IMG/VR virus record: IMGVR_UViG_3300045988_174823
DNA from: a virus
Reading direction: 5' to 3' (one strand)
DNA length: 64,000 nucleotides
Shown: piece by piece, positions 6,292 through 59,772 of the stretch
How positions within the stretch are numbered: the stretch's first letter is position 1
How the letters are laid out: each line of letters begins with the position of its first letter
Made by a program: the position numbers and the translations under genes
Notes under the pieces: generated by a model
What the model was told of the DNA's origin: nothing
Seen by the model: only the letters and a program-made list of their open reading frames with translations
The model's database searches: none

Positions 6292-7238
6292 GGCCGTTTG
6301 TATATCTTCTCGACGCAGGGGCCGTCCTTCGATACGTCCTCAGCCATACGGCGAATTTCTGGCGTGATAGGCGGGAGCGTTTTCTTACCCATCTTATCAG
6401 GCAGGAAACCGACACGGACGCTGACATGTGTACACCCCTGACACGGACGGAACCGACGATCGTTGTTGTACAGCATCACGCGGGCAGCATGAAAGCGCGG
6501 ATGGTTCCAGAGGTCTTCGATAGGCATGTCGTGGATGTTGGCGATAGGGTACTCGCCGCGAAAGTCGTCGCAGCACAAGCACACCTGGCCGTTCCAACGC
6601 ACATCCAGTTCGCGGAACGGAAAAGTACATCGTTTGTTGTTGAACGAGTCGTCGAGCGGGAACGCTGCGCCACAGTGGTTAGCCAGACGACGCGTCATCT
6701 TGTTGGTATCGTCTTCGGCGATAGGCGGCAACAGACAGATACGGCGGCCCTGCTTGGGGTAGTAGTACGGAACGCCCGGTTCCAGCGTAACGACGTTGTA
6801 TTTCTCGATGTCGATTTTCTCGACGAAATTCCAGTCACCCTTAGCCGTATAGCAGTCCACCAGAATATCATTCATGCCGGCTTCAAAAAGACGGTCTAAA
6901 TATTCCGACGTATCCTTGGCGTGGTTCATACCGTACCCGTTGCTGTACATATGAAATACGGCTTTGGGCAGGTGTTTACGGAACGTAGCCACGATGTCGA
7001 TGAATGCGGGGTTGAGCGTCGGTTCGCCGTGCATAGCGAATACGAACTTACATTTCCACCCTACGCGGGCTACCTCTGAAGCGATACGCTCGGCGGTTTC
7101 AACGGTCATGAAATTCCACGGCTTAGTGCCTTTTTCGCGCATGCCGTGGAGACCGCAAAACGAACAACCCAGATTACACCCCTCCGTCGGTTCAATCTGC
7201 ATAGTGAACGGAGGGTCTTGTACGATTTTGTTTTTCAT
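6279..7238 (-). CDS. radical SAM enzyme with C-terminal Cys-rich (SPASM/twitch-like) domain
   Basis: EGCNLGCSFCG (CxxxCxxC) and HGEPTLNP. C-terminal CLCCDDFRG...RPCQGC. The ATG shares one nt with the stop of the MuF-like gene. Confidence 0.8.
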   Translation of the reverse strand: MKNKIVQDPPFTMQIEPTEGCNLGCSFCGLHGMREKGTKPWNFMTVETAERIASEVARVGWKCKFVFAMHGEPTLNPAFIDIVATFRKHLPKAVFHMYSNGYGMNHAKDTSEYLDRLFEAGMNDILVDCYTAKGDWNFVEKIDIEKYNVVTLEPGVPYYYPKQGRRICLLPPIAEDDTNKMTRRLANHCGAAFPLDDSFNNKRCTFPFRELDVRWNGQVCLCCDDFRGEYPIANIHDMPIEDLWNHPRFHAARVMLYNNDRRFRPCQGCTHVSVRVGFLPDKMGKKTLPPITPEIRRMAEDVSKDGPCVEKIYKRPWEK

Positions 7239-9268
7239 TATTTGGTAACTTTAATGTTAAGTTTCACGTTCTTTAACTTTGGGTTCTTAAACTGGCGTTT
7301 GATAGGCTTGATGAAAGCGCGGGTTGCAGGGTCCCAATCAAAGCCATCAGGAACGTGGTTGACTGTACACCGGCAATTGTGAACCACAATTCCATCGGCA
7401 ATGTAGCTTTCATCTTCGGCAACTGAAATATTGTACAATTTAGTGTACTTTTTAGATCTCGGAACTTGTTTAATGTATAAAACCTTCACACCACGCGAAA
7501 CTATTTGCCCCCGGTGATTTTTGAACAGCCGTTTCAGGCGGTTGTAAACCATATCGCCGTGGTTGTTTATCTCATCTTCAGTGAAGCGGAATGTCTCATA
7601 GCCGTAACACTCCAAAATGTCCTTATCGCGGTTGGAATCGTATTCCGGATCGTTGTGCCATTTTTCGCCGTCAGCCTCCAAAACAATCTTGAGATCGGGA
7701 ATCAGTAAATCGGGGAAATACCCCACAACATCGTTGCGGAACTTTCCGTTATTTTTCAAGAACACCCCTGTCTTAGCTTCAACTCCTAACGACTTACACA
7801 GATACTCCAACTTGCGCTCGATGAACGACCGTTTCTTACCATTGGTAGAATTAGTCTTCTTCAGCGCCTCAGCCATCCAAGGATACTCACCTTGATATTT
7901 ATCTTCGATAGCTTTTCTTGCTCTGGTGGTAAGTTTCTGACGATCGACAGCACTCATATTGGCATAACGAACAGCCATCTCTTCTTTGACTTTCTTACTC
8001 ATGTAAGAACGGAACTCTGTGTCTTGCCATTGCGAGACGCACTGTTCGCTCCGGTGACAAGCTATACACAGCCCCCTCTCCAAAAGAGTATCGCTGGCTG
8101 AAACGTATATTGGCATAAACGAACCGCATTTTTCACAACAAACACCTTCGATTGTTATCAAATCGCCTGTTTTCAATGAAGCAGCCTCTCGCCATTCACC
8201 GTTTGAAAGAATTGGATGATTTCCTGTTATACGACGCACCTTCCGTACCTTTTTACGCCCTAAAAGGTTTTTGACGGCATAATAGATGTCGTACAGGGGT
8301 TCATCCTTATGATCGTGAATAATCACTTCCGTAACAGGCCTAAACCTCCCTCGGTGAGTCAAAACCATATCCCCTTTCTTTAGAGAAGATATGTTTCTCC
8401 ATCCGTTGATGGTGTACACCTTTGTAGCCGGATTATTGAAACAATAGGGGTGCGTTGGGTCAATCGTAGGGAGCCATTCTGCCACCTTACGACCGATGTT
8501 GTTACCGTTAGCGATAAGGTCTGCCAAACGGAACAGTTTCGGTTTCGAGGTAGGGTCTTCGGGGTCTTCTAAGTACAACTCCCGGCACTTAGCGCACGCG
8601 CCTGGATAGACGTCGAAATACACTTTGGCGTCAGGACCGTGTTGCTTGAAAATACTTTCGGCACGGCCCACGTTGTAGGCTTCGTGTAGAAGGTAGTACG
8701 CAATACGCAGCCAATCGCGTCCCCAGTCTTGGGTAAGGTTTCCGAGTTCGCTGGCTATATACCGGGCTCCCTTACGGAGTTGAACAGCTTGAATGGCCTT
8801 GTCTTTTATTTGTTGACGTATTTCTGATTGTTGACGGAAATTCGATTTGAGTACAGCGTTGCGTGTTCCGGTGACGATACGATTACCAAGCGACGTGATG
8901 TCGGTATAGGCACGATTCTTGAGGTAGTTGAGCGCGTTTTCTTCCTGTTCGGTAAGCGGAACAAAGTTTCCCGATTTCAAGAACTGGAGAAACTGCTTGT
9001 AATTCATCTTCTTGGCGCGAGTGTCGCCAATTGCTTCGGCCAGTATTCCAAACAAAAAGGCGTGTTCGATGATGCCCTTTGAGTTCTTGTACTTATCGAC
9101 GTTGACCCCTGAAGCTACCAAGATATCAATTTCAGACTGCGTGAGGTAGTCCAATCCGACGTGCTTGGCAATAAAGAGATATTGCCAACGCCGGAGAATA
9201 CCGACCATGTCGTCTATTTGACGGTTGTTGAAAATCATAACTTTTCGACGTCTTTTCGGGGAATCCAT
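7238..9268 (-). CDS. MuF/SPP1 gp7-like head morphogenesis protein interrupted by an intein
   Basis: Removing residues 276-631 joins THPY to CRCTV. This restores the HPxCRC motif typical of Mu F/SPP1 gp7 family proteins. Confidence 0.7.
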   Translation of the reverse strand: MDSPKRRRKVMIFNNRQIDDMVGILRRWQYLFIAKHVGLDYLTQSEIDILVASGVNVDKYKNSKGIIEHAFLFGILAEAIGDTRAKKMNYKQFLQFLKSGNFVPLTEQEENALNYLKNRAYTDITSLGNRIVTGTRNAVLKSNFRQQSEIRQQIKDKAIQAVQLRKGARYIASELGNLTQDWGRDWLRIAYYLLHEAYNVGRAESIFKQHGPDAKVYFDVYPGACAKCRELYLEDPEDPTSKPKLFRLADLIANGNNIGRKVAEWLPTIDPTHPYCFNNPATKVYTINGWRNISSLKKGDMVLTHRGRFRPVTEVIIHDHKDEPLYDIYYAVKNLLGRKKVRKVRRITGNHPILSNGEWREAASLKTGDLITIEGVCCEKCGSFMPIYVSASDTLLERGLCIACHRSEQCVSQWQDTEFRSYMSKKVKEEMAVRYANMSAVDRQKLTTRARKAIEDKYQGEYPWMAEALKKTNSTNGKKRSFIERKLEYLCKSLGVEAKTGVFLKNNGKFRNDVVGYFPDLLIPDLKIVLEADGEKWHNDPEYDSNRDKDILECYGYETFRFTEDEINNHGDMVYNRLKRLFKNHRGQIVSRGVKVLYIKQVPRSKKYTKLYNISVAEDESYIADGIVVHNCRCTVNHVPDGFDWDPATRAFIKPIKRQFKNPKLKNVKLNIKVTK
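7376..8443 (-). mobile_element. intein (356 aa) with Zn-finger-like Cys cluster and DUF559/Vsr-like PD-(D/E)XK nuclease domain
   Basis: Starts with Cys (tgt, 8443-8441) and ends VVHN (aat, 7378-7376), followed by +1 Cys. Internal CCEKCG...CIACH cluster and PDLLIPDLKIVLEADGEKWHNDPEYDSNRDKDILECYGYETFRF. Confidence 0.7.
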
Positions 9269-22978: not shown

Positions 22979-23503
22979 CTATTTAATCGTTGAACCGAAC
23001 CCTCCGGCGTCGCGCATCGAAGGCGTCAACGTGTCGGTTTCCTCCACTTCAATATACGGCGCAGGGACGATGACCAACTGGGCTACAACGTCTCCTGCCT
23101 TAAATTCCTTGGTGCTCAGATTCACGTTTTGAGGCTTCATCCCCGCAACCTCACCGAAGACGTTGGAAAGTAATCCACAAACGCTCTTGAAGAACCTGTG
23201 AACCAGCGTAGGCAAATGCCACGTCTTCTTGTAACGAGCACGTATCGTGCCGCGGTAGCCAGGGTCGATAACCCCTGGAGCATTACACATCACCAGGTCC
23301 ATTTTTGAACAACGCGAATTCGGGACCAGCAACCCGCAATACCCCCTGGGAATTTCGACGGCGATGCCGGTATCGTATTCGATGTAATCTTCAGTTTCCT
23401 TTACGGTTACAGCCACGAGGTCCAGGCCGTTATCCTCACCACCAGGATGAGCATACGTCGGCAGTACGGCTTCAGGGTGTACTTTCTTGAATTTTACGGT
23501 CAT
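22979..23503 (-). CDS. dut: dUTPase (trimeric type) with a ~30-aa insertion between motifs III and IV
   Basis: Motifs NGLDLVAV, VPNSRCSK, GVIDPGYRGTI, GDVVAQLV and RDAGGFGSTIK. Confidence 0.85.
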   Translation of the reverse strand: MTVKFKKVHPEAVLPTYAHPGGEDNGLDLVAVTVKETEDYIEYDTGIAVEIPRGYCGLLVPNSRCSKMDLVMCNAPGVIDPGYRGTIRARYKKTWHLPTLVHRFFKSVCGLLSNVFGEVAGMKPQNVNLSTKEFKAGDVVAQLVIVPAPYIEVEETDTLTPSMRDAGGFGSTIK

Positions 23504-24315
23504 TTCTTGTATCCTTTTAAGTGTAATTTGACTTCTATCATTTCACGATCCTTCATCTCGCCACCCCAGTTGGTACACTTCTTGGTGCGGAGTGTGATGT
23601 ATTCAGGGAACGTTTCCCTTAAACGTTGTGACTCGGCGTTGGAGTTCTCGATAGTTCGGTACACAGAACAACCGCCAGCAGCGTTGGCTCCTGTCATTTT
23701 ATCGAACGAATACTGATACGAAACCACGTTATCCAACCCAGCACGACGCAGGCCACAAGCCAAGGCAAAATCCTCTTTTATAGGCCAATCACTGAACCTA
23801 ACAGGCTGGCTCAGATATTGCTCAATATTCAGCCCCCAAATGGAGAAGAACCGCCCATTAATTTGTACGTCGTGCGTCTTATCGCGGTTGAATGGCCTAT
23901 ACGAAAGAGCCGCCACGGCGTAGGTGTCCAACTGCTCCGCTACCCAGTCAAACATCATCGAATAGATGCATTCCTGGGCCTCGACGGTGAAATTGTCGTT
24001 GTTTACCACTACAGGGGTCTTGGCATCGTCTAAACGCAGTGAGAAAGACACGTTATCGTCTAAGAAAAAGACTCCGCCAAATCCCCTATCAGCGGCCTCT
24101 ACAACAATGTAGTCTCGTATGTCGCCTACACCGCGACATACCGTACTGTATTCCTCGATGGCGGCAACCTTACCGCCCCAGTTGCGTTGGTGAGCGGCCA
24201 ATTCGCCAGGGTGACAGAATACCGTTACGCGGCGACGGGCCTCAGGCGTTAGGCGCTGGAGGGTTTTCTGGCGGTCAATACGACCACGGGTGAATAGTGC
24301 TATCAGAGTTTTCAT
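23500..24315 (-). CDS. GT-A-like glycosyltransferase candidate, paralog-like to 4805-5608
   Basis: IALFTRGRIDR strand, VFFLDDNVSF (DxD-like), and a C-terminal AAGGCSVYRT...TFPEY motif shared with ORF 4805-5608. ATGA overlap with dut. Confidence 0.45.
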   Translation of the reverse strand: MKTLIALFTRGRIDRQKTLQRLTPEARRRVTVFCHPGELAAHQRNWGGKVAAIEEYSTVCRGVGDIRDYIVVEAADRGFGGVFFLDDNVSFSLRLDDAKTPVVVNNDNFTVEAQECIYSMMFDWVAEQLDTYAVAALSYRPFNRDKTHDVQINGRFFSIWGLNIEQYLSQPVRFSDWPIKEDFALACGLRRAGLDNVVSYQYSFDKMTGANAAGGCSVYRTIENSNAESQRLRETFPEYITLRTKKCTNWGGEMKDREMIEVKLHLKGYKK

Positions 24316-24334: not shown

Positions 24335-27052
24335 CTAACCTAACATATCGAATTTAAATCCGGTAGTCATACGCGACGCCGCCAAGTCGGCCAGCCAAAA
24401 CGACGACGAAATATCATCGTGACTACCGACACTCTCCAGCCCTTTTTCGGTAAAGGCAACGGAACCGAGGTCTTGGAAGATGAGGTCCTTGACCTGCTGA
24501 GAATAAACGTTACCTATCGGGATGTGGATTTTGCCGCGCTCGAACAACGTCGAAAGGTGCGGCCATCCGGTCTTCAGGTCGTACTTATCAATTCCCGTAG
24601 TGTGACCAATAACGGGCATACCCTCGGTGTCGGCTGTCTCGACGAATATCTGTTGGAATGTGTTATTCTCCATCACGATAAGGTCAGGCCGGAAGCGGGA
24701 GTTGATACGGCGCAGAACGTTCATCTGCTCGAAAAACTTGGCACCTTTTTCACGGTAGAGGTGCAACAGCCAGCGCTCGTCGGTCAATTCGTCAATACCC
24801 CATACGCTAAATACGGCGTAGTCGGCGCCGACGTTGGCTGAAATAGCGAAGTCGCACCCGACAACCACTTTAGAGAACTTAATGGGGAATTCTTCGCGCG
24901 AATCAACCAACGTGTAATTTTCCATCCGCAGTAGCGAACGCGTGAGGATTTCCATCGGGAAGATTGACGACTCGTTGGTAATCGGGCGACAAAGGTTCTC
25001 ACGCGAGAAGATGATTGAACCCTGGGTCTCCTTTTTATCCATCAGGTCCTTAAACGACCAACGCTGGGGCCAAAGGATTCGTCCGTCGGGGAAGATGGCT
25101 GGATACTCGATAACGAACCAACCGTTCTTGGTCTTCAGGTCGCCGTAAAGGTCTTCGGCGTGGAACGGCGTACCGACGACGATAATCTGGCCACCAGGTA
25201 CGAGCATATTCATGATTACGGAGTGGAAATAGTCGGTGGACTTATTTCGTTGGAGACTGGAGTAAATGACGTTGTCCTTCAAGCCGTCATCTACGATAAT
25301 CCAATACGGGTGAGCACCACGCACCGACGATCCAAAACCTTTTCCCGTCAAACGTGCTCCGTTACGGCACACGATATTGGTAGCCGACCAGTTGTTGGCT
25401 GTCGATTGGGGAAACAGCCGTTCCTTCAATATCTCGTTTTCCTCAATAGTGCCTTTCAGAATCTCCAAAAGGTCCACACTCTGTTGTAACGAGAACGAGA
25501 ACAAGAATCCGCGATTTGATGAAGCTGCCGCAGGTCGTTTCGAGTAGCGGGTGGTTGACGGCTTCTTGTAACGGTATAGCTGCCACGCGGCGTAGGCGTT
25601 GGAGAAATAGAACGAGTTGTGCGTAACCGTACCGTCACCCAGCACGAAGCGGTGGTCGCCGTCGGTGGTGATAGATATGTAGTCACCTTCACCCGCGGGC
25701 GTGATCTTCAACGACGATACCACCGTAGGGTGTACGCCGTCGATAGTGCCCCAGTCCTTGTGTGACGTCTTGGCGGCCCAGTCGGTTTGGACCTTTTTAC
25801 GAGCGATCTTTACTGGGATGCGGTCCAGTTCACCAGAAATAGTCACGCACCACGACGAATAGTCGCGGCCTAACGCTTTACAATACCGCGTTCCACCACC
25901 CATTCGGGTACAGAAGCCAAGGCTGTCGGCCAAGTTCTTCACGTCACACACCAACTGGTAGTTCGTATTACCGAAGTGATAGCCGCCCTGCCAATAGTTA
26001 CCGTCGGAATCGATCAACCCAGCCAACACCTGAAGACGAACTTCTTCGCTGTTGACGAGGTACTGCTCCGGAATGTGCTTATTGTAGAGCAGGTTGTAAC
26101 CCTTGAGCATCCTTTCCAGCGGGTTACGCTTACCGCGGCCACGAACGTCAATTCCAAGTGTCACTACCATACCATTTTGGCCATAGTGAAGCCCCAAGCG
26201 CTCGGCGTAAGAGTGTAAGTACTCACACACTTCAGGGTCGGCGGTGGTGATCTTCTGGTTGTTGGAGTTGCCGTCGCCTAACCAGTACCCAAGAAAATAT
26301 GGTTCCAACCCCACGGGCCGCGTGGGGTACTGCACTGCCACCTTGAAACCGCGGTAACGTTCCTTCACCCAGTTCGGGGTCTTGCTTAAAAGCGTCGGAA
26401 TATCAATATCCACTATCCGCTTCGACGCTGTAGCGATGGAACCGTTGCGGTCCTTCTCGATCAGCGTACAAATGTGGCGTGAGTTGACGGTGTGGCTATC
26501 ACCGCGCGACTGGTCGATACGGTACATCATCGAATCGTGGCCACGGCGCGTAGCAACCACGCGGCGGGGCTTAGAGTCGATGCCCATCAACAAGTCGCCA
26601 ACCACAACGTCTTCGACCTTTTTGATAGTTCCGTCGTACATTCGGACGGGGGTTCCGACGGCTTCGCACTTTCCGTGGTCACGCGCTGCGTTGATACACA
26701 ATTTCTTGTGGTTATGGACTAATTCACCCCATTCCAGGTGGTGCCACGACAGCTGGAAGTCAGGGATAACAGAGGTGATGAAATACGTCAAGTTGGCGCA
26801 TCGTAGGGTATCTTCTACGACGGCCGAAACGTTTTCTTCGTAGCGGGGTTTGAAGTCAATCGACGCGTCACCCGTGTACATAATACGATATGTGTCCTCC
26901 AACAGAGCGTCGAATATCGTATCAACGTCGTGTATATCGCCACTCATCATCTCATTCAACCCACGCTCGTCCATACCCTCGATTATTTCATCAACGAGGT
27001 CTAAACAAGCCAAACGGTGCGTAACCGAGGGTGCTGTAATCTGAGGTATCAT
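24335..27052 (-). CDS. terL: terminase large subunit interrupted by an intein in the Walker A motif
   Basis: Removing residues 129-479 gives NAARDHGK-SFYFS (P-loop). The remaining ~550 aa have a terminase-like layout. Confidence 0.8.
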   Translation of the reverse strand: MIPQITAPSVTHRLACLDLVDEIIEGMDERGLNEMMSGDIHDVDTIFDALLEDTYRIMYTGDASIDFKPRYEENVSAVVEDTLRCANLTYFITSVIPDFQLSWHHLEWGELVHNHKKLCINAARDHGKCEAVGTPVRMYDGTIKKVEDVVVGDLLMGIDSKPRRVVATRRGHDSMMYRIDQSRGDSHTVNSRHICTLIEKDRNGSIATASKRIVDIDIPTLLSKTPNWVKERYRGFKVAVQYPTRPVGLEPYFLGYWLGDGNSNNQKITTADPEVCEYLHSYAERLGLHYGQNGMVVTLGIDVRGRGKRNPLERMLKGYNLLYNKHIPEQYLVNSEEVRLQVLAGLIDSDGNYWQGGYHFGNTNYQLVCDVKNLADSLGFCTRMGGGTRYCKALGRDYSSWCVTISGELDRIPVKIARKKVQTDWAAKTSHKDWGTIDGVHPTVVSSLKITPAGEGDYISITTDGDHRFVLGDGTVTHNSFYFSNAYAAWQLYRYKKPSTTRYSKRPAAASSNRGFLFSFSLQQSVDLLEILKGTIEENEILKERLFPQSTANNWSATNIVCRNGARLTGKGFGSSVRGAHPYWIIVDDGLKDNVIYSSLQRNKSTDYFHSVIMNMLVPGGQIIVVGTPFHAEDLYGDLKTKNGWFVIEYPAIFPDGRILWPQRWSFKDLMDKKETQGSIIFSRENLCRPITNESSIFPMEILTRSLLRMENYTLVDSREEFPIKFSKVVVGCDFAISANVGADYAVFSVWGIDELTDERWLLHLYREKGAKFFEQMNVLRRINSRFRPDLIVMENNTFQQIFVETADTEGMPVIGHTTGIDKYDLKTGWPHLSTLFERGKIHIPIGNVYSQQVKDLIFQDLGSVAFTEKGLESVGSHDDISSSFWLADLAASRMTTGFKFDMLG
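25616..26668 (-). mobile_element. intein (351 aa) with LAGLIDADG homing endonuclease
   Basis: Starts with Cys (tgc, 26668-26666) and ends VTHN (aac, 25618-25616), followed by +1 Ser. Contains LGYWLGDGNS and LAGLIDSDGNY. Confidence 0.8.
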
Positions 27053-27125: not shown

Positions 27126-27602
27126 TCACTTCTTCAAATTTAACACCTTGGCGATGTAACGTTCCATTCCCAGGGTCTCGCGCTGATACACCTCTTCAGG
27201 GTATTCTTTCAAGAGTACGGAGTTGTAACTCTCAATAGCTGCCTCAAGCAACGTAGTCAGCTGTATAATCTTGGCCTTATGAACCGCTGCACGGTCGTCG
27301 GCGTTAAAAGTGAAGCAGAATTTTGTTTTGTTGGCGTCCATTATATCGACGTAACCGAACGTCTGAAGTGTTTCCAAAAGATCCAACGCCTTACGGTGTG
27401 ACAGCGTCGTCTTCTTTACAACCTCTGTACGGGTGAAAGTGCGTTGAGATCTCATCTCTTGCTCCAAAGCGTCTTTGCACAAAATACGAAGCAATTCGAG
27501 TGCTTTGGAAAAGGCCAATTGGCGGTTTTCGTCCTTTTCGGTGTACTGTTTTGCCGCTTCTACCTCCTCGGGTGTTTGAGCGACACGTGTGTTATCTGCC
27601 AT
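27126..27602 (-). CDS. hypothetical protein (small terminase candidate by position only)
   Basis: 158-aa ORF directly upstream of terL. No diagnostic motif. Confidence 0.3.
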   Translation of the reverse strand: MADNTRVAQTPEEVEAAKQYTEKDENRQLAFSKALELLRILCKDALEQEMRSQRTFTRTEVVKKTTLSHRKALDLLETLQTFGYVDIMDANKTKFCFTFNADDRAAVHKAKIIQLTTLLEAAIESYNSVLLKEYPEEVYQRETLGMERYIAKVLNLKK

Positions 27603-29067: not shown

Positions 29068-29288
29068 GGGGATGGATTAAACCTTTGATTGATGGAAGTA
29101 TGTTAAATACTTTATGGTCGGGGCGATATTTCACGCCCCGTGTTCGTCGGTTGTCGTTCCTATTGGTGCTCCCCTGTGCCGGCCGGGCGAACTGCCACAA
29201 CGATGACGAACGAAATTTCTTAAAAAGCCCCTCACCCATGGACTTTCGGGCCGCGTCTGCCGCACGCGGTTTTAATTGGGGCTTCTTG

Positions 29289-29359
29289 TTGACCCGGAAG
29301 GATTCGAACCTCCAACACCGGAACCAAAATCCGATGTGTTACCATTACACCACAGGTCA
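29289..29359 (-). tRNA. tRNA-Gln: tRNA-Gln (anticodon UUG)
   Basis: Hand-folded cloverleaf. Acceptor TGACCTG/CGGGTCA (U1-A72 as in bacterial tRNA-Gln), D arm GTGT-AATGGTA-ACAC, anticodon arm TCGGA-TTTTGGT-TCCGG, T arm GGAGG-TTCGAAT-CCTTC, discriminator A. No encoded CCA. Confidence 0.85.
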
Positions 29360-29742
29360 GTTAAGGGGCGCGACGCATCGCTTATACTCTTCCCCCCTTG
29401 TAGAGTCTGTCTCCTCCGCTCCGGCGCTCGCTATGGAGGAAGTCTGCGTTGCTGCCTTGGAGACAATTTTGTTACTGGTGTCAGGACTTATACGTTCCGA
29501 GACCTGACTTAACCCCACCAGCCTTGAGGTATTGGTGCCAGCCGACTGGGCGTCGGGACGGACACTGTGTAGAGTAATTCGTGGCCACTCTTTGACTCAA
29601 CAGCACCCTTTTCTGGCCAAAAGTAGAGGAAATACCGCGGTTGGAAAAGAAACTACACTCGTTGAAAACCTAACTCTTCATTGCTTGGCGTTAAGCGGCG
29701 TTTCCTCGTTTCAGATACTATAACGTTGAAGCGAAAGTAACT
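29360..29742 (-). ncRNA. candidate structured non-coding RNA upstream of (co-transcribed with?) tRNA-Gln
   Basis: About 380 nt with no credible ORF, lying between a terminator and the tRNA. Composite helix CTGGT-GTCAGG...CCTGAC-(8-nt bulge)-ACCAG (29474-29520), GTCTCC/GGAGAC (29409-14/29459-64), and TGGCCA/TGGCCA (29582-87/29613-18). Family not recognised. Confidence 0.25.
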
Positions 29743-29776
29743 AAAAATCCGCCAGGGGCAACCACATCCCTGGCGG
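29743..29776 (-). terminator. Rho-independent terminator after the HU gene
   Basis: Perfect 9-bp stem CCGCCAGGG/CCCTGGCGG with a 10-nt loop, followed on the sense strand by ATTTTT. Confidence 0.7.
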
Positions 29777-29810
29777 ACGTACGAAAGCGAACTGTGCTAC
29801 CAGTTACGGG

Positions 29811-30098
29811 CTATTTCTTAGCCTTTTTGCCGTAGGCGCGGAAACTGTACGCCGGACGGAACTGGATAGTCTTGTAGGGGTCAGTGGGGGCCGTAACACC
29901 CGTCTGCGGGTTACGTGCCATACGCGACGGTTGGTCCTTGGGGACGAACTTTCCCACCTTACCGATAGGGATGATTTCGTCCTTGTCGCGAACCTCCTCG
30001 GTGAGAATCTCTTCCAAAGCACGGACGAAAGCAATCGCCTGGGCCTTGGTAGTGCCGGCCTTGGCGGCCAAAGCACCGTAAAAATCTTGCACTTTCAT
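29811..30098 (-). CDS. hup: HU/IHF-family DNA-binding protein
   Basis: MKVQDFYGALAAKAGTTKAQAIAFVRALEEILTEEV...IPIGKVGKFVPKDQPSRMARNPQTGV...FRPA. The ATG at 30098 is chosen (track ORF extends to 30233) because it does not overlap the upstream gene. Confidence 0.8.
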   Translation of the reverse strand: MKVQDFYGALAAKAGTTKAQAIAFVRALEEILTEEVRDKDEIIPIGKVGKFVPKDQPSRMARNPQTGVTAPTDPYKTIQFRPAYSFRAYGKKAKK

Positions 30099-30136
30099 TG
30101 TACGATAATTTTGATTGTTGATAAATATGGGGTTTG

Positions 30137-30616
30137 TTAAACCTTTGTCGAAGCGATGGTAATTCCTAATTCTACCAGCTGTGAACGTAACGAATTCCAA
30201 GCAGCGTCGCGGGCTTCGGGGTTTATCCACCATTCGGAGAAATTATCACCTTCCGCAGCCATAGTGTCGTGGTTAAGGACGATGCCGTATTCGAAGCGTT
30301 GTTGTGAGTCGTTATATCGATCTACGCGGACTATCGACCGGATGGCGTACCACGGGACCACGACATCGCCCAACTCAATAAACACGCCATTCAAGCGTTT
30401 TTTATTCGTCGCTTCGTCAGCGTGACCCAGGAAGTCGGTTAACGACATATCGTAATCTGGACCATCGTCGGCGTTGCGTTCGGCGTCATACGGCCGTGCC
30501 TTTACCGTCGCGGGCTTATCACCAAATAGCGGCAGGCCATTGGCGCCGCGAGGTATCTTATGAGCCTTTTCAGGCGGCTGTTTTTCGTCAATTTTCGACG
30601 TGCGGACCTTTACCAT
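30137..30616 (-). CDS. hypothetical protein
   Basis: 159-aa ORF with an ATG start. Confidence 0.5.
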   Translation of the reverse strand: MVKVRTSKIDEKQPPEKAHKIPRGANGLPLFGDKPATVKARPYDAERNADDGPDYDMSLTDFLGHADEATNKKRLNGVFIELGDVVVPWYAIRSIVRVDRYNDSQQRFEYGIVLNHDTMAAEGDNFSEWWINPEARDAAWNSLRSQLVELGITIASTKV

Positions 30617-31539: not shown

Positions 31540-31803
31540 TTACCACTGGACCATCATCCGGAAATAGGCGAAATATTTCCTTGTGCGGTTCAGGCCCACA
31601 GTTTCGGTTTTGTAAACTTCATCTATCGTTACTTCGTAACCTTGTTTCTTCAAACGCTGAGCAACGTATTTCAACCTGTTGCCGTTGGCGTCTTCGTTGA
31701 AGAATTCGCGTTTCCCCCTGGCGATAGCGCGTTGGATTCCAAACTCTACGTCAGCCAATGCCAATTCGTAAATCCAATTCCCCAGCCAAAAGATCTTCGG
31801 CAA
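31540..31803 (-). CDS. hypothetical protein (start uncertain, TTG in track)
   Basis: 87-aa ORF overlapping the upstream ORF by 53 nt. Confidence 0.35.
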   Translation of the reverse strand: MPKIFWLGNWIYELALADVEFGIQRAIARGKREFFNEDANGNRLKYVAQRLKKQGYEVTIDEVYKTETVGLNRTRKYFAYFRMMVQW

Positions 31804-31954
31804 TTTCGTAATTCAGGTGGCGCTGGGCCAAGGTGGTAAGTTTACGAGCCTGGGCGGCGGTGAGTATGGGACGGAATTGCTTGTTATCGAGTTGTACGCT
31901 GGGTGTTTGCTGTTGGCGTTCCATTTCGTGATTTTTGAGGTTTTCAACACTCAT
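31751..31954 (-). CDS. hypothetical protein, first gene after the non-coding hub
   Basis: 67-aa ORF with its ATG at 31954. Confidence 0.45.
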   Translation of the reverse strand: MSVENLKNHEMERQQQTPSVQLDNKQFRPILTAAQARKLTTLAQRHLNYEIAEDLLAGELDLRIGIG

Positions 31955-31977
31955 AACGTTGGCGATGTCTTACGCTG

Positions 31978-32074
31978 GTGTGTACGCGTGTGTACGCTGG
32001 CGTGTGGGGTGCTTGGCGGCTTGCTTCTCTCGCGCGCGCGTATGTCCACACGTGTACGCGCTTGCACGCGCGTG
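31978..32074. repeat. cluster of alternating purine-pyrimidine tracts and GTGTACGC repeats
   Basis: Uninterrupted alternating Pu/Py runs at 31978-31997 (20 nt), 32031-32045 (15 nt, including (CG)5), 32047-32061 (15 nt) and 32063-32074 (12 nt). GTGTACGC(G/T) occurs three times. Confidence 0.8.
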
Positions 32075-32084
32075 AGGCCCCAAA

Positions 32085-32116
32085 GTGTAGAGAGAAGTGT
32101 TTTTTTCTCTCTACAC
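32085..32116. repeat. perfect 12-bp inverted repeat (hairpin)
   Basis: GTGTAGAGAGAA (32085-32096), 8-nt loop, TTCTCTCTACAC (32105-32116). Confidence 0.85.
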
Positions 32117-32254
32117 CGGGTATTGGGGTAAAGGAGGGGGGGATTATAGGGGGGAAGGATAGGGAAGGTTAGGAAGTAAGGGGGTGTGGGGGGAGAGAAA
32201 CCTGCAGGAAGGGGAAGTAAGGGGGGAAGAAAGGGGAGGAGGAGAAGGGGGAAA
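32117..32254 (+). repeat. polypurine / G-run tract (G-quadruplex or triplex-prone)
   Basis: No C on the plus strand across 32117-32199 or 32207-32254. Eleven runs of G3-G7. Terminal pure-purine block of ~35 nt. Confidence 0.85.
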
Positions 32255-32444
32255 CCGCCAAAAGGGCGAAAATCTCTCTAAAAAACGAGAAAAATCTCAA
32301 CGACAGAAAATCGTCAAAACCAAAAACTGCCAAAGGGTGAAAACCGTCAAGAAAATCTTACAAGAAGAGCGAAACTGCCAAGACAGTCAATCAGGAAATC
32401 GCCAACAGCGAAAACCATCAACAGTCGTACAGCCCTCTTGGCAG
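32251..32444. promoter_or_regulatory. iteron-like array: about 10 imperfect direct repeats GAAA(A)yCGyCAA plus one inverted CTCTTGGCAG
   Basis: Copies start near 32251, 32268, 32289, 32306, 32322, 32339, 32351, 32371, 32395 and 32410, spaced 12-24 nt. An inverted copy lies at 32435-32444. The words CTGCCAAGA and AAATCGCCAACAG recur in promoter-like repeats P1 and P4. Confidence 0.6.
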
Positions 32445-32642
32445 CCAGGCGAAGGATGAAAGACGTCGCTGGAATGTCGTGGTCGGTGCTGGTGAGGCGT
32501 TACAGCCGAGGTGAACGTGTAACATCGTTCAACATGTCGCTGCGAGGTCGTTAAGACGTTAACGCGATTTTAGACCATTTGACGAACTATCTATCCTCAG
32601 GGGACCCCGGTGTACCGGAAAAGCATTTTGCGCAGTCAAACG

Positions 32643-32680
32643 AAAAGAAAAAGGGCCAATACAACAATTTGCATTGACCC
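32643..32680 (-). terminator. Rho-independent terminator after ORF 32706-33704
   Basis: Sense strand GGGTCAAT-(12 nt)-ATTGGCCC (8 bp, one G-U) followed by TTTTTCTTTT. Confidence 0.7.
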
Positions 32681-32705
32681 TCTACAGACGCAAATAGCCT
32701 ACGTG

Positions 32706-33704
32706 TTACGATACAGGCTTTTCGTCGGCTTTCAACACAGCTTCAGCATCAGCGACCTTGTCGTCCAGGTCCGTCACCTGAGGCTCGCTACCATCGGTGG
32801 GGACGTCAATACGCTTCAGCCCTACCTTGGACCCCAGCTCACGACCTAACATCGCAGCCAACGCCGCCATGGGGTTATCCTGGGAAGCGAAAGTGGGTTG
32901 TTCCTCTTCGTCAGGGTCAGGGATACCGTGTTCGCGACGAAAAGCCTCCGACTGAGTACGAAAACGTGCGTGGTACTCTTGTTGAATGCCGTCAGGATTG
33001 GTACGGAGCCAACCCTCATCAGCCAGCGTGGCCAACAGCGGTACGTTGAAAGCGACCAGTTTCTCTACCAGGAACGTACCAACGCCAAACACGTTGACCA
33101 ATAGCACACCGTCGGTGCGGCGATACGTAGCGCCCATCAGGTCCTGATCTACCAACACGAACTGACCGTAGAGTTCGCGCGGATTGGTAGTGGGGACGTG
33201 TTGAGCAATTTTCTCCACACCGATGCCGCAGTGGCCGTAACGTTCGTTGACGATCTCCAGTATCGTACGCTCGATAACGCGCCACTCCTCGTCCAGCACC
33301 GGGCCGTATTTTTCGATAGCCTTGGCGCCAAGGGCGGTGAAGTAAAGCGCATCGTCGTCAGGGCAGAACTCCATCAATCCGGCGTCGGTACATTCGTGCG
33401 ACAAACGCTTGATTTCGCTGACGACCGTGGCGCCATCGCTGATAGGTATCACCGCCCTAAACGCCAGGTTGTTATCCAGGAACGTTCCCAGCCACTGACG
33501 AATTTCGCCGTAACGCGGAGCAGCCTCAGCTACGTCAGTGAAAGGCAGCGGACCCTCATCCACACGGATGATACTCGGGCGGTCGGCAGCAGCGTTGGCC
33601 GCAGCGTACAGGAACAGGACCTGAGTCTTGGTGATACGCGCTTCGTCGTTGATAGGTAACGCCTCCTGGGCGTTGAACACGGTGGTAATTACGTTTGTTT
33701 CCAT
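32706..33704 (-). CDS. hypothetical acidic protein
   Basis: 332-aa ORF with an ATG start, followed by a terminator. Confidence 0.55.
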   Translation of the reverse strand: METNVITTVFNAQEALPINDEARITKTQVLFLYAAANAAADRPSIIRVDEGPLPFTDVAEAAPRYGEIRQWLGTFLDNNLAFRAVIPISDGATVVSEIKRLSHECTDAGLMEFCPDDDALYFTALGAKAIEKYGPVLDEEWRVIERTILEIVNERYGHCGIGVEKIAQHVPTTNPRELYGQFVLVDQDLMGATYRRTDGVLLVNVFGVGTFLVEKLVAFNVPLLATLADEGWLRTNPDGIQQEYHARFRTQSEAFRREHGIPDPDEEEQPTFASQDNPMAALAAMLGRELGSKVGLKRIDVPTDGSEPQVTDLDDKVADAEAVLKADEKPVS

Positions 33705-39091: not shown

Positions 39092-39188
39092 TTTTCCAAG
39101 AGCGAAGGTAGTGTAAATCTCCAAGACTTCAAAGAGAATCGCGAAAAATCTTCCAAGAAAAGTGAATTATTTCGTAAATCGCCAACAG
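39092..39188 (-). promoter_or_regulatory. promoter-like repeat, copy P4
   Basis: Plus strand reads TTTTCCAAGAGCGAAGGTAGTGTAAATCTCCAAGACTTCAAAGAGAATCGCGAAAAATCTTCCAAGAAAAG...AAATCGCCAACAG. Confidence 0.5.
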
Positions 39189-39221
39189 AAACCCCCAGCG
39201 GACGAGTTGGTCCACCGGGGG
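39186..39221 (-). terminator. terminator-like imperfect hairpin after ORF 39242-39793
   Basis: CCCCCAGCGGAC / GTCCACCGGGGG (10 of 12 bp) followed on the sense strand by a weak TTTCTGTT tract. Confidence 0.35.
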
Positions 39222-39241
39222 CACAGATAATACAACGGTTG

Positions 39242-49044: not shown

Positions 49045-49896
49045 CTATAAGATAATAACGTTGGTGCGAATCATACCCTTGAACCACCCATCAGGTACGG
49101 GAACTCCCTTTGGTAAACGTTTATTTTTCAATCCATTATTAATCCATACAAATTTCGTTCCGGTTAGCGGATGTGGATGGGTAGAATAGTATTTCTTCAT
49201 CCGTTCCGACACCACATTTTTATGTTTACTATAATATTTCTTGTTAGCTTCAGAAATTTTGCGTTTAGTATCATCCGACATTGCGCCTCGTACACGCCCT
49301 GACATAATTTCCGAATGTCTTCTTTTCCATTCTTCGGTGTGATGTTTACCGCGCAACGCCTCGGCAACTTTGTTTATGTGCTCTTGAGTCTTTTTCTTTC
49401 CTCTTAACGCTTTCGATATCTTTTCGCGGTGTTCTGCAGTGATAATTCTCCCGATAAGAGATTGGGACTTCTTGGCTTTTGACTCTTCTGATTGCTTAAT
49501 TCCTGTCATCCGAATCCTTATTGCTTCTCGCGCTGCTGGAGAAGATAACCTCCGTTTAGCGGCGATTGACATTTTACACTTAACCTCAGGAATTTTAGCC
49601 GGGTTTACTTGACCAAACATATTCGATGAACCCGGAAGGATGTTATATCCTATGTCCTTTTCAGTCGAGTGCAGCTTCTTGATGTAAAGCATCTCCCAAG
49701 CATCCAACTGAGGTTGTGTGTCGCAAATACGGAGCGTTTCACGCTTGAAATTCTCAGGGCCGTAATGTCTAACAGCTAAGAGCAAGTTCCTTCCGCTTCC
49801 CAAATACCCGTCGAATTCGTCAGATTCACAAACGTGTTAACCGATGTAAATCTTGCCGTTGACGAGGTTCGTAGTTTTGTAAATTATACCGTACAT
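49045..49896 (-). pseudogene. free-standing GIY-YIG homing endonuclease gene with an in-frame TAA at codon 20
   Basis: MYGIIYKTTNLVNGKIYIG*HVCESDEFDGYLGSG.... The TAA at 49839-49837 replaces the CAA found in the paralog at 59772. The rest of the frame stays open (NUMOD-like C-terminus). The first 32 nt are identical to copy 2. Confidence 0.75.
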
Positions 49897-56313: not shown

Positions 56314-56961
56314 TTAAATTATATCGTTTTGTAAGTCATTAATGGCTCCTACCCATACGTACATCAGGCGTTCTTGCTCACAAATATCCGCCGATACACA
56401 CGTACTTTGTAACGTTGAAACCGCCCTACGATAGCTATCCTTACAATACGGTAATAAATCCAAAGGCCAAGAGCGGTTTCCCATCCCCACCTCACGATGC
56501 AAGAAATACAACAACGCCATCCAATCGGCCACCTTTACAATCGCGTGAGCAACGTCGTAATACGGTGCATCCTTTGAAAGCGTTTTGGCAATTACCGAAT
56601 CGTCTCCGAATTCGGCCATTACCTGGTGCGCAACAAACTCGTCCAAAACGTTACGCAGTTCCGACCCGTTATAAGCGTTATATTTAAGTTCGTGGGTGAT
56701 ATCGCGACGCAGAATAGCCTCGTCGAAGTCATGCATCAGCGCCATCTTCAGCGTCTGATACTTGAACGTAGCCACCGTATTATTATCGTCCCCTCCAGGC
56801 CAGAGATAGTCCAGCAGGCACATCGTGAAGACCGATACCTTGTACGAATGTTGCGAAACGCTTTCCTGCTGGTGGCGGTCATACTCCAACCACTGCTTGA
56901 TGTTATCCAACCGCGCAAGATGATCGCGGTTGAAGAGTTTGATTAAATCATCCTTTTGCAT
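56314..56961 (-). CDS. HD-domain 5'-deoxynucleotidase (YfbR-like) candidate
   Basis: ESVSQHSYKVSVFTMCLL and MALMHDFDEAILRRDITHELKY parallel YfbR ENVAEHS... and ...HDASEVLTGDLPTPVKY. Confidence 0.55.
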   Translation of the reverse strand: MQKDDLIKLFNRDHLARLDNIKQWLEYDRHQQESVSQHSYKVSVFTMCLLDYLWPGGDDNNTVATFKYQTLKMALMHDFDEAILRRDITHELKYNAYNGSELRNVLDEFVAHQVMAEFGDDSVIAKTLSKDAPYYDVAHAIVKVADWMALLYFLHREVGMGNRSWPLDLLPYCKDSYRRAVSTLQSTCVSADICEQERLMYVWVGAINDLQNDII

Positions 56962-59022: not shown

Positions 59023-59772
59023 TTCTTTCTCGGTTTCATTCCATGCCAAAATCCATCGGGGAGAGAGGCGTCCTTGCAAATAGTAGCGTTTATTTCGCCG
59101 TTAGTTATCCTAACTTTGCCTTGCATAGGGTTCGTGTATCCACGTTCATACCTATCGCGTAATTTCTTTCCAAAATCTTTTCGCCGCTCCTCGGGCCAGC
59201 GATTATGCCAGTTAGGGTTATTTTCACCCTTGTATCGCCCTTTCATTTTAGCCGACAAATTTGCCTTTTGTTCAGCCGTCCATCGGTTGCCGTAGTTTGG
59301 ATTCTTTTCGCCTATGTATCGCCCTTTTAAGGTCTTCGAAATTTTTTTTCTTATAATCAGTATTATCTAAAGCAATTTGACGTTTTTGATGAATTTGCTT
59401 CATTAATTCTGGATGATTCTTGAATGTCTTTTTAAGCGACCGTGAAACTTTCAAAGCAACCTCTGGAATCAACATGGGTGAGCCGCTTCCAAACTTATTA
59501 GCCGTACCCGATAAGATATTGTAGCCAATCCTCTTATTGGTTGAATTGAGTTTCTTGATGTATAGCATTCCCCAGGCGTCGAGTTGTAACTGGGTATCGC
59601 ATACGCGGAGCGTTTCACGCTTGAAGTTCTCAGGTCCGTAATGTTTAACCGCGTTCGTCAAAGATACACCACTACCCAAATACCCGTCAAACTCGTCAGA
59701 TTCGCAAACATGTTGGCCGATATAAATCTTGCCGTTAATTAGGTTCGTAGTTTTGTAAATTATACCGTACAT
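59019..59772 (-). mobile_element. GIY-YIG homing endonuclease gene inserted in dnaE, split into two frames at an A8 run
   Basis: ORF 59272-59772 has GIIY...KIYIG. The NUMOD3-like repeats (GEKNPNYG, GENNPNWH) continue in the frame of ORF 59019-59258, open from 59366. The frames meet at sense-strand A8 (plus T8 at 59342-59349), and A7 would give one ORF. Confidence 0.75.

What the first reader, a model, noticed from the sequence alone, without database searches (positions are those of the whole stretch)
31965..32116. Z-DNA-prone alternating tracts, GTGTACGC repeats and a perfect 12-bp hairpin just upstream of an operon start
This stretch lies between the ATG at 31954 and the polypurine tract. 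It holds four uninterrupted alternating purine-pyrimidine runs: 31978-31997 (20 nt), 32031-32045 (15 nt, including (CG)5), 32047-32061 (15 nt) and 32063-32074 (12 nt). GTGTACGC(G/T) occurs three times. It ends with GTGTAGAGAGAA-N8-TTCTCTCTACAC at 32085-32116. No ORF explains any of this. The region sits downstream of a good terminator (32643-32680), so it is a true inter-operon control region. Candidate roles are an origin, a promoter/operator, or a packaging or terminus signal.
Basis: seen in the sequence. Interest (0 to 1): 0.7.

Follow-up and report, generated by a model that had tools for sequence, protein, structure and literature searches.

The report
Putative phage replication origin region
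The odd alternating tracts and perfect hairpin are real and conserved, and they form one end of a single-copy non-coding region that probably acts as the phage's replication origin, built around a pyrimidine-rich DNA element that also sits inside replication-initiator genes of many unrelated phages and mobile elements.

Summary
All four alternating runs, the three GTGTACGC copies and the 12-bp/8-nt hairpin are at the stated coordinates. 62 of 130 nt lie in alternating runs of 12 nt or more, which 0 of 5000 dinucleotide shuffles reach.

The interval is the gene-proximal end of the largest gap in the window, 751 nt at 31955-32705. All genes are on the minus strand. Read on that strand, the gap runs:
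- terminator
- array of at least 8 TTGRNRRTTT iterons
- ~136-nt polypyrimidine tract with CCCCTATAATCCCCC, which carries the only canonical G4 motif in the 64 kb
- hairpin
- alternating GC-rich stretch
- inverted iteron box
- ATG at 31924, which is conserved, whereas 31954 is not

About 25 related ~100-kb phage contigs keep this order although much of the sequence no longer aligns. Their hairpin stems covary and they keep significant alternation.

The polypyrimidine/TATAAT element is a cross-phylum family with iterons abutting it. 23 of 43 distinct copies lie inside long ORFs. I scanned 18 of those, and every annotated PHROG match is a replication initiator, read in two frames.

Best reading: an iteron-type origin with a cluster of non-B-DNA elements (confidence about 0.5). 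A promoter with a structured leader and a packaging signal remain rivals. Function is inferred, not shown.

The parts
32643..32683 (-). Intrinsic-terminator-like hairpin plus T-run that ends the upstream transcription unit (332-aa gene, 32706-33704).
   Evidence: 15-pair stem, then TTCTTTTCGT; for coordinates. Relatives have a terminator at the same place with a different sequence.
32609..32616 (-). GGTACACC box, followed by ..CACCTGAGAG-like sequence in relatives. Conserved in relatives with a long gap, absent from the short-gap clade. Role unknown.
   Evidence: window, L001-L006, L008, L012, L269, L270, L272.
32250..32432 (-). Array of at least 8 iteron-like direct repeats, TTG(A/G)N(1-2)(A/G)NTT(T/C), for example TTGGCGATTTC and TTGACGGTTTT. 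The last copy (TTGGCGGTTTCC, 32261-32250) abuts the pyrimidine tract.
   Evidence: 6 of the 11 window matches to TTGRCRRTTT lie here. Relatives keep 2-7 copies, always with one abutting the tract.
32122..32258 (-). Polypyrimidine tract, 85% C+T on the gene-sense strand and polypurine on the + strand. It carries C4-6 blocks in the family order TTTCTT block, CACA block, TATAAT block.
   Evidence: Family alignment. C-run spacing has its mode at 11 nt.
32138..32152 (-). CCCCTATAATCCCCC, an A/T island inside the C-rich tract and the signature of the family.
   Evidence: the only CCCCTATA in 64 kb. Searches show it in IMG/VR and in 64 bacterial genome loci.
32118..32164 (+). Canonical G-quadruplex motif (at least 4 G3+ runs, loops of 7 nt or less) on the purine strand, spanning the TATAAT island. 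It is the only one in the window.
   Evidence: 22 of 39 distinct family members have the equivalent motif.
32085..32116 (.). HP1: perfect 12-bp palindrome with an 8-nt loop (AAAAACAC on the minus strand).
   Evidence: Nine stem variants in relatives with compensatory changes and a constant loop AAA(A/G)ACAC. It is always fully paired on the + strand; 4 variants show A.C mismatches on the sense strand. Single copy. No T-run follows it on either strand.
31978..32074 (.). GC-rich stretch holding the four alternating purine-pyrimidine runs and the three GTGTACGC copies. It includes a 28-nt module (32034-32061, GCGCGTACACGTGTGGACATACGCGCGC) shared at about 90% with the L007-L013 clade.
   Evidence: 0 of 5000 shuffles; 30-nt, 90% blastn match; alternation conserved in 16 distinct versions; RNA-fold z-score -4.4.
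31953..31964 (-). CGCCAACGTTAT box. It contains an inverted iteron core (CGCCAA = reverse complement of TTGGCG) and is invariant in all aligned relatives.
   Evidence: invariant columns C227-T238; inverted repeat I4 with iteron 32395-32406.
31922..31924 (-). Conserved ATG (ATGGAAC), the likely true start of the first downstream gene. It has no Shine-Dalgarno sequence, like most genes here.
32706..33704 (-). Upstream 332-aa gene, restricted to this phage clade. Weak, non-significant hint of a winged-helix domain. Candidate iteron binder, by inference only.
   Evidence: no family, no phage match; 61 homologues, all within the clade; pLDDT 52; best fold matches are winged-helix proteins, but all with E > 0.2.

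Best explanation
The interval is the gene-proximal end of a single-copy, iteron-type origin-of-replication region of a novel ~100-kb phage. The host is probably Bacteroidota-like (no Shine-Dalgarno sequences).

Proposed mechanism, all steps inferred:
1. A phage initiator binds the TTGGCGATTT-type iterons at 32250-32432 and the inverted copy at 31953-31964.
2. Binding distorts the abutting polypyrimidine/polypurine tract, and the duplex opens at the TATAAT island.
3. The pyrimidine strand cannot pair with itself, so it stays single-stranded as a loading platform.
4. The G-run strand can fold (G4), and the flanking palindrome HP1 can extrude, preferentially on the purine strand.
5. The alternating GC-rich tracts act as a supercoil-responsive (Z-prone or cruciform-prone), hard-to-melt boundary next to the bubble. 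This is analogous to the GC-rich segment beside the unwinding element in RK2 oriV (from my own knowledge, not checked here).

Shown: the anatomy, its conservation, stem covariation, conserved alternation, and the family's association with initiator genes.
Inferred: every functional step.

Transcription from or through the region may assist opening, so the promoter rival is not exclusive.
For: 1. Layout. Terminator, at least 8 iterons, 136-nt pyrimidine tract with CCCCTATAATCCCCC, palindrome, alternating GC-rich stretch, inverted iteron box. The region is the largest gap in the window. It holds the only polypyrimidine tract, the only G4 motif and the only HP1-type hairpin in 64 kb.

2. Conserved architecture.
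- In loci L001-L006 and L014 the flanking protein is 95-99% identical, yet the first ~640 nt of the gap do not align by blastn.
- Every relative still keeps the same order of parts, down to 58% flank identity.

3. Structural selection.
- HP1 has 9 stem variants with a constant loop.
- The basal stem of HP2 has four fully compensatory versions: GAGAGAC/GTCTCTC, GGGAGAC/GTCTCCC, GAGGGAC/GTCCCTC, GAGGAAC/GTTCCTC.
- Alternating runs far exceed dinucleotide shuffles in all 16 distinct versions: at most 16 of 500 shuffles reach the observed value, and none does in 11 versions.

4. The family.
- The composite pattern CCCCN{4,8}CCCCN{4,30}CCCCTATAATCCCCC hits 64 bacterial genome loci, against my estimate of about 2 by chance. 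They span Bacteroidales, Clostridia, Alphaproteobacteria, Planctomycetota, Cyanobacteria, Dehalococcoidia and others.
- An independent anchor, CCCCCTTTCTTCCCCC, finds C3+TATAATC3+ 20-40 nt downstream in 23 of 33 distinct hits.
- Phage-specific direct repeats abut the tract: a 7-mer occurs three or more times in 42% of copies against 5% of control windows.

5. Link to replication initiators.
- 23 of 43 distinct copies lie inside long ORFs.
- All annotated PHROG matches of the 18 I scanned are replication initiation, primosomal, DnaD-like helicase-loader, replisome-organizer or O-like families.
- The tract is read as SPYNPP in some and as PPIIPP in others, so the constraint is on the DNA and not on the protein.

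6. Downstream features in the family. (CG)3+ and purine runs of 12 nt or more occur within 150 nt downstream of the TATAAT core in 32% of members, against 8% and 6% of controls.
Against: - No initiation point, protein binding or autonomous replication has been shown for any member of the family.
- The window's copy is intergenic, and no recognisable initiator lies next to it. The jackhmmer DnaD-like search gives no window hit. PHROGs and Pfam find nothing for the flanking genes.
- The tract is C-rich rather than A+T-rich, so it is not a classical unwinding element.
- Iteron number varies from about 2 to 10 among close relatives. A second small iteron cluster follows another terminator at 39124-39185. 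That would also fit an operator or promoter role.
- All genes lie on one strand, so GC skew says nothing about an origin.
- The closest cultured phage lacks the element in the 50 kb I examined.
Confidence: 0.5

Rival explanations
1. Promoter plus structured 5' leader. TATAAT is the -10 element of the promoter for the downstream operon (small genes, HU-like protein, exonuclease, terminase, structural genes). The iterons are operator or activator sites. HP1, HP2, HP3 and the GC-rich tracts are RNA stem-loops that stabilise the transcript or make RNA polymerase termination-resistant.
For: - It lies between a terminator and the first gene of a unit.
- Strong predicted folding of the sense strand: z-scores -4.4, -6.0 and -5.0.
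- Stem covariation.
- A second iteron cluster also follows a terminator and precedes genes.
Against: - No -35 element and no extended -10. The sigma-70 scan does not call a promoter here.
- Gene starts lack Shine-Dalgarno sequences (9 of 83) and the nearest phages infect Bacteroidota. Established knowledge, not tested here: the Bacteroidota promoter consensus is TTTG / TAnnTTTG. TAnnTTTG is absent from the gap.
- The same CCCCTATAATCCCCC element lies inside initiator ORFs in other phages.
- HP1 carries A.C mismatches on the sense strand in 4 of 9 variants, but is fully paired on the antisense strand.
- Alternation of purines and pyrimidines is a property of DNA, and it is the feature that is conserved.
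- No Rfam family matches.
Confidence: 0.2
2. Packaging or terminus signal. The region is a pac/cos site or the boundary of a terminal repeat, cut by the terminase encoded about 5 kb downstream. It would be an A/T island flanked by C/G runs; the resemblance to herpesvirus pac1 is recalled from memory, not tested.
For: - Single copy.
- The large terminase gene lies at 24335-27052.
- Some contigs end inside the tract: L270 and MT839567.1.
Against: - Most ~97-100-kb contigs carry the region internally, at varied positions.
- Contig breaks are expected anyway where a k-mer-rich element is shared by many phages in one sample.
- Family members sit in replication-initiator genes, not in small-terminase genes.
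Confidence: 0.1
3. A recombination-prone mosaic spacer or a small mobile cassette with no dedicated function in this phage. It would be kept because modules are swapped between co-infecting relatives.
For: - The gap is mosaic. The window shares the 32034-32061 module with the L007-L013 clade but not with its closest relatives, and L024 combines halves from two clades.
- The element is multi-copy in Porphyromonas uenonis and in some MAGs.
- The phage carries inteins and homing endonucleases.
Against: - The order of parts, the abutting iteron, the constant hairpin loop, the compensatory stem changes and the conserved alternation all indicate selection.
- Association with initiator genes.
Confidence: 0.1

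Closest known systems
Lambdoid origin (ori-lambda) inside the O initiator gene
   Same: Direct-repeat iterons lie immediately next to a special tract where opening occurs. The iteron number varies between relatives (4 versus 6). In the other family members the whole unit lies in the middle of the initiator gene and encodes its linker (PMC7466680).
   Different: The tract is a C-rich polypyrimidine run with a 6-bp TATAAT island and G4 potential, not a ~40-bp A+T-rich segment. The window's copy is intergenic with no recognisable O-like gene. The hosts span many phyla.
Replisome-organizer / DnaD-like initiator genes of Firmicutes phages (SPP1 oriL type, lactococcal P335-type phages)
   Same: The ORFs that contain the family element match the PHROG families 'replisome organizer', 'DnaD-like helicase loader' and 'replication initiation protein'. 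Their C-terminal domains hit lactococcal phage replication proteins. SPP1 initiates at an origin, oriL, using essential phage-encoded replication proteins (abstracts of PMC5737612 and PMC5615212, listed). That oriL lies within the organizer gene is from my own knowledge.
   Different: As far as I recall, not checked here, the described origins of those phages have repeats plus an A+T-rich region. I found no description of a polypyrimidine/TATAAT element.
Iteron plasmid origins such as RK2 oriV (iterons, A+T-rich region, G+C-rich region)
   Same: The same order: iterons, an opening tract, then a G+C-rich segment. Here the G+C-rich segment is the alternating stretch in the finding. The comparison rests on my own knowledge of RK2.
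   Different: No DnaA boxes or 13-mers identified. The G+C-rich part here is specifically alternating and palindromic.
Transcription-primed or R-loop origins (T4 oriF/oriG, ColE1, mitochondrial CSBII) and G4-containing viral origins (HCMV oriLyt)
   Same: A promoter-like hexamer followed in many family members by a purine run (32% against 6% of controls), and G-run motifs at the site. T4 origins use R-loops (abstract of PMC3016281). A G4 motif in HCMV oriLyt is necessary for viral growth (abstract of PMC11350156).
   Different: No transcript is known. In the window the G-rich strand is the template strand for gene-sense transcription. The TATAAT hexamer lacks a -35 element.
Hairpin signals with conserved loops (N4 virion-RNA-polymerase promoters, G4-type primase signals)
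   Same: A covarying stem with an invariant loop, and several hairpins in a row in relatives. The comparison is recalled from memory.
   Different: The stem is 12-14 bp with a 6-8-nt loop, and there is one copy per genome. No virion RNA polymerase or dedicated primase has been identified.

Membership tests
Iteron-type replication origin | Three or more direct repeats of a 10-22-bp initiator-binding motif | tested here: met
   At least 8 copies of TTGRN(1-2)RNTT(T/C) in 32250-32432. 6 of the 11 window matches to the stricter pattern are here.
Iteron-type replication origin | An adjacent, easily unwound A+T-rich element | tested here: not met
   The adjacent tract is 85% pyrimidine and C-rich, with only a 6-bp TATAAT island. 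An unwinding role would need a non-classical mechanism.
Iteron-type replication origin | A cognate initiator gene in cis | tested here: inconclusive
   Window: no initiator family is found in the neighbours, and the winged-helix hint for the 332-aa protein is not significant. Family: 23 of 43 copies lie inside long ORFs, and all annotated PHROG matches of the 18 scanned are replication initiators.
Iteron-type replication origin | Replication starts there, or the region supports autonomous replication | not testable with these tools
   Needs marker-frequency data, 2D gels or ori cloning.
Polypyrimidine/TATAAT element family (defined here) | C4-6 blocks at about 10-11-nt spacing, in the order TTTCTT block, (T)ACA(A) block, CCCCTATAATCCCCC | tested here: met
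   The window has CCCCTTTCTTCCCCCC, CCCCCCACACCCCC and CCCCCCTATAATCCCCCCC in that order.
Polypyrimidine/TATAAT element family (defined here) | Element-specific direct repeats abut the 5' end of the tract, and the pyrimidine strand is the gene-sense strand | tested here: met
   TTGGCGGTTTCC abuts the tract, and all genes are on the same strand as the tract. Family comparison.
Sigma-70-type promoter | -35 and -10 hexamers with 16-18-bp spacing | tested here: not met
   A perfect -10 hexamer is present, but there is no -35 and the scan does not call it.
Bacteroidota-type promoter | TAnnTTTG (-7) with TTTG (-33) | tested here: not met
   No TAnnTTTG in 31900-32720 on the sense strand. The consensus itself is from my own knowledge.
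Intrinsic terminator (for hairpin 32085-32116) | G+C-rich stem followed by a T-run | tested here: not met
   No T-run follows on either strand, and one search reports only the 32683-32643 site.
Z-DNA-forming sequence | Uninterrupted alternating purine-pyrimidine run rich in CG/CA steps | tested here: met
   Runs of 20, 15, 15 and 12 nt, including (CG)5. Conserved in relatives, up to 29 nt.
Z-DNA-forming sequence | A B-to-Z transition under physiological supercoiling | not testable with these tools
   Needs 2D gels, chemical probing or anti-Z-DNA antibody.
Any curated RNA family (Rfam 15) | Covariance-model match | tested here: not met
   No match at E <= 5 in 31700-32900. Only the tRNA-Gln matches in the whole window.

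The most novel reading that the evidence does not exclude
The polypyrimidine C-block/TATAAT element is a previously undescribed, modular origin core. It would be shared across bacterial phyla by phages, prophages and other mobile elements, and combined with element-specific iterons and unrelated initiator families. It would open through non-B DNA: a pyrimidine strand that cannot self-pair, a G4-capable purine strand, and flanking cruciform-prone and Z-prone tracts, rather than A+T-rich melting. The window's phage would carry a free-standing, intergenic version.
Probability: 0.35. Interest if true: 0.85.

Novelty: new variant of a known kind. Interest (0 to 1): 0.66.

Why it matters
- Origins of most uncultured phages are unknown. 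A sequence signature that marks them across phyla would allow origins to be annotated directly from metagenomes.
- It would show a way of opening DNA that does not depend on A+T richness.
- It would also explain recurrent contig breaks at these tracts.
- For this phage clade, it pinpoints a ~480-bp region (31953-32432) for experiments.
- The conserved alternation and the strand-asymmetric hairpin give concrete, testable structural predictions.

Tried and rejected
- DNA similarity of 31700-32900 to 50,697 cultured-phage records: no match.
- Rfam, at both E-value and gathering thresholds: nothing except the tRNA.
- PHROGs and Pfam on 24 neighbouring ORFs: only the HU-like protein and the exonuclease are recognised near the gap.
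- tblastn of both flanking proteins against cultured phages: nothing useful.
- AlphaFold model of the 332-aa protein: low confidence, pLDDT 52. Foldseek against PDB gives no match with E below 0.2. The winged-helix flavour of the top hits is only a hint.
- jackhmmer with a DnaD-like C-domain: no hit in the window.
- Pfam on family ORFs: no hits. PHROGs was needed to recognise them.
- Exact 15-mer and 16-mer scans contain many chance hits. My estimate is about 100 for the 15-mer, so I kept only hits in a pyrimidine-rich context and then confirmed the family with a composite pattern and with an independent anchor.
- Sigma-70 promoter, Bacteroidota promoter and terminator readings of TATAAT and HP1: rejected on the motif tests.
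- GC skew: uninformative, because all genes share one strand.
- Chryseobacterium phage MA9V-3, the closest cultured relative, shares the HU plus tRNA-Gln synteny. It has no pyrimidine tract, G4 motif or long alternating runs in its first 50 kb.
- blastn of a family member against cultured phages is largely blocked by the low-complexity filter.
- Five literature searches found no description of the element. That library is incomplete, so prior description cannot be excluded.

Full report
**What the window is.** The 64 kb belong to a phage-like genome with every gene on the minus strand. Recognisable genes:
- a split DnaE-type polymerase, a thymidylate-synthase-like enzyme, SbcC-like and UvrD-like proteins, and a portal
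- a UvsX-like recombinase, a Holliday-junction resolvase, a glucosyltransferase, a dUTPase, and an intein-containing large terminase at 24335-27052

Only 9 of 83 gene starts have a Shine-Dalgarno-like sequence. The nearest cultured phages, at 35-41% protein identity, infect Chryseobacterium, Cellulophaga, Tenacibaculum and Bacteroides. A Bacteroidota-type host is therefore likely. Related contigs are about 97-100 kb long.

**Checking the observation.** It is far beyond chance:
- 62 of the 130 nt between 31955 and 32084 lie in alternating runs of 12 nt or more.
- Dinucleotide-preserving shuffles give a mean of 8.9 nt, and 0 of 5000 reach 62.
- No other 130-nt window of the sequence reaches even 30 nt.
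- The terminator is confirmed.
- One correction: the ATG at 31954 is not conserved, while the in-frame ATG at 31924 is invariant in relatives.

**The interval is one end of a larger element.** The gap 31955-32705 is the largest in the window. Read on the gene-sense strand it contains, in order:
1. a terminator (32683-32643)
2. a GGTACACC box
3. at least 8 iteron-like repeats, TTGRNRRTTT(C/T), at 32432-32250
4. a 136-nt tract that is 85% pyrimidine (32258-32122), with CCCCTATAATCCCCC at 32152-32138
5. the hairpin at 32116-32085
6. the alternating GC-rich stretch
7. the box CGCCAACGTTAT (31964-31953), whose CGCCAA is an inverted iteron core
8. the ATG at 31924

On the + strand the tract is a run of G-blocks. 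It holds the only canonical G-quadruplex motif in the 64 kb, at 32118-32164. The hairpin type occurs once.

**Relatives.** About 25 related loci were read.
- In L001-L006 and L014 the upstream protein is 95-99% identical, yet the first ~640 nt of the gap do not align by blastn.
- The order of parts is nevertheless the same in every clade, down to 58% flank identity.
- An iteron always abuts the tract.
- The hairpin has nine stem variants with compensatory changes and a constant loop, AAA(A/G)ACAC.
- That hairpin is fully paired in all nine variants when read on the window's + strand. On the sense strand it has one or two A.C mismatches in four variants.
- Most relatives carry two further palindromes. 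The basal stem of the second occurs in four fully compensatory versions.
- Alternation itself is conserved. In 16 distinct versions of the stretch, many of them mutually unalignable, 18-69 nt lie in alternating runs of 10 nt or more, with the longest at 29 nt. At most 16 of 500 shuffles reach the observed value, and none does in 11 versions.

**The pyrimidine tract belongs to a wide family.**
- Exact-word scans of IMG/VR turned up the same core in many unrelated contigs. Many hits are chance, so I kept only those in a pyrimidine-rich context.
- The composite pattern CCCCN{4,8}CCCCN{4,30}CCCCTATAATCCCCC then found 64 loci in bacterial genomes, against my estimate of about 2 by chance. They come from Bacteroidales, Clostridia, Alphaproteobacteria, Planctomycetota, Cyanobacteria, Dehalococcoidia, Acidobacteria and others, and include isolate genomes.
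- An independent anchor, CCCCCTTTCTTCCCCC, found C3+TATAATC3+ 20-40 nt downstream in 23 of 33 distinct hits.
- C-blocks recur with a modal spacing of 11 nt.
- Element-specific direct repeats abut the tract. A 7-mer occurs three or more times in 42% of copies, against 5% of controls.
- (CG)3+ blocks and purine runs are enriched just downstream, at 32% against 8% and 6%.

**What the family is attached to.**
- Of 43 distinct copies, 23 lie inside long ORFs.
- Every annotated PHROG match of the 18 I scanned is a replication-initiation, primosomal, DnaD-like helicase-loader, replisome-organizer or O-like family.
- The tract is read as ...SPYNPP... in some genes and as ...PPIIPP... in others, including close relatives that differ by an indel. 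The constraint is therefore on the DNA, and the protein simply tolerates a Pro/Ser-rich linker.
- Iterons plus a special tract in the middle of the initiator gene is the lambda arrangement (PMC7466680).

**Interpretation.** The most economical reading is that the window's gap is a free-standing version of this origin-like module. The finding's hairpin and alternating tracts would then be its distal, non-B-DNA-forming part. The proposed steps are:
1. initiator binding at the iterons
2. opening at the TATAAT island
3. a pyrimidine strand that cannot self-pair
4. a G4-capable purine strand
5. hairpin extrusion on the purine strand
6. a Z-prone, GC-rich boundary

All six steps are inferences.

**Weak points.**
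- No function has been shown for any member of the family.
- No initiator is recognisable next to the window's copy. The winged-helix hint for the 332-aa protein is not significant.
- The tract is not A+T-rich.
- Iteron number varies, and a second iteron cluster follows another terminator at 39124-39185.

**Rivals.**
- Promoter with a structured leader. It fits the position and the strong folding. It is weakened by the missing -35, the likely Bacteroidota-type host, the occurrence of the element inside ORFs elsewhere, the sense-strand mismatches in the hairpin, and the DNA-level nature of alternation. It can coexist with an origin, through transcriptional activation.
- Packaging signal. It is suggested only by single-copy status, the nearby terminase gene and a few contigs that end in the tract. 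Those breaks are expected where a word-rich element is shared by many phages in one sample.
- Functionless mosaic spacer. This is contradicted by the covariation and the conserved syntax.

**Novelty.** Iteron-type origins inside or beside initiator genes are well known. I did not find this polypyrimidine/TATAAT core, or its conserved cluster of G4-, cruciform- and Z-prone sequences, in five literature searches. That library is incomplete. I therefore file the finding as a new variant of a known kind, with moderate confidence in the function and high confidence in the anatomy and its conservation.

Noticed in passing
window 39100-39241 (minus strand): A second, smaller cluster of the same iteron motif (TTGGCGATTTAC, TTGGAAGATTTTTC, TTGGAGATTTAC). 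It sits right after a terminator-like hairpin and before a run of about 14 genes that have no annotated family match. It has no pyrimidine tract. It may be an operator or autoregulation site for the same binding protein.
   Followed up: partly
window, gene starts throughout: Only 9 of 83 starts have a Shine-Dalgarno-like sequence. Many carry GTAAAAC, GTACAAC or CGTAAAC about 8-15 nt upstream of the ATG, for example at 27602, 47227, 35775 and 33704. This may be a phage-specific start-site motif.
   Followed up: no
window 24335-27052, 7238-9268, 59272-59772, 49045-49803 (minus strand): Selfish elements are abundant. The large terminase carries an intein with a LAGLIDADG endonuclease. A 676-aa protein carries a second Hint/intein. 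Homing-endonuclease genes lie between the two halves of the DnaE polymerase gene (59760-61463 and 56977-59079) and at 49045-49803.
   Followed up: partly
window 61465-62682, 23500-24315, 22979-23503, 56314-56961 (minus strand): A gene set that suggests modified DNA: a thymidylate-synthase-like protein of 405 aa, a homologue of beta-glucosyl-HMC alpha-glucosyltransferase, a dUTPase, and a match to the PHROG family 'dATP triphosphohydrolase'. A heavily pyrimidine-biased tract would then be modified on one strand only.
   Followed up: no
window 29288-30233 (minus strand); L275 38122-38873: An HU-like DNA-binding gene is followed by tRNA-Gln. The same pairing occurs in Chryseobacterium phage MA9V-3. 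About 430 nt between them (29360-29803) have no ORF of note and no Rfam match.
   Followed up: partly
window 31540-31954 (minus strand): The first downstream ORF is split in the window (31924-31751, plus an overlapping ORF at 31803-31540). It is a single ORF of about 175 aa in L001-L006, and it is short in the L008/L009 clade. This is either a frameshift or a fast-evolving gene.
   Followed up: no
window 31951-32275 (minus strand): One reading frame is open for about 108 codons through the pyrimidine tract, the hairpin and the alternating stretch, in the ...PPYNPP... frame used by some initiator genes. It ends at a TGA that overlaps ATG 31954. It has no ATG, GTG or TTG until 37 codons before its end.
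   Followed up: partly
L270 5240-5266; MT839567.1 4116-4184; L098, L107, L141: Several assemblies end inside or at the pyrimidine tract. The likely cause is that its words are shared by many phages in one sample, or that it is hard to sequence. The tract may be a systematic cause of contig breaks in viromes.
   Followed up: partly
L207, L216, L230, L237, L250, L257 (Porphyromonas uenonis); L212, L242, L243, L258 (one Bacteroidaceae MAG): The family element is multi-copy in some genomes, with near-identical flanks. In P. uenonis it lies inside a 368-aa stop-to-stop ORF. This suggests a repeated mobile element that carries its own initiator.
   Followed up: no
L109, L113, L122 (IMG/VR loci): In some family members, purine blocks on the two sides of the pyrimidine tract are mirror images of each other, for example GAGAGAGAAAAAGAAAGAAAA ... 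AGAAAAGAAAGAAAAAGAGAGAG. This symmetry is associated with triplex (H-DNA) formation.
   Followed up: no
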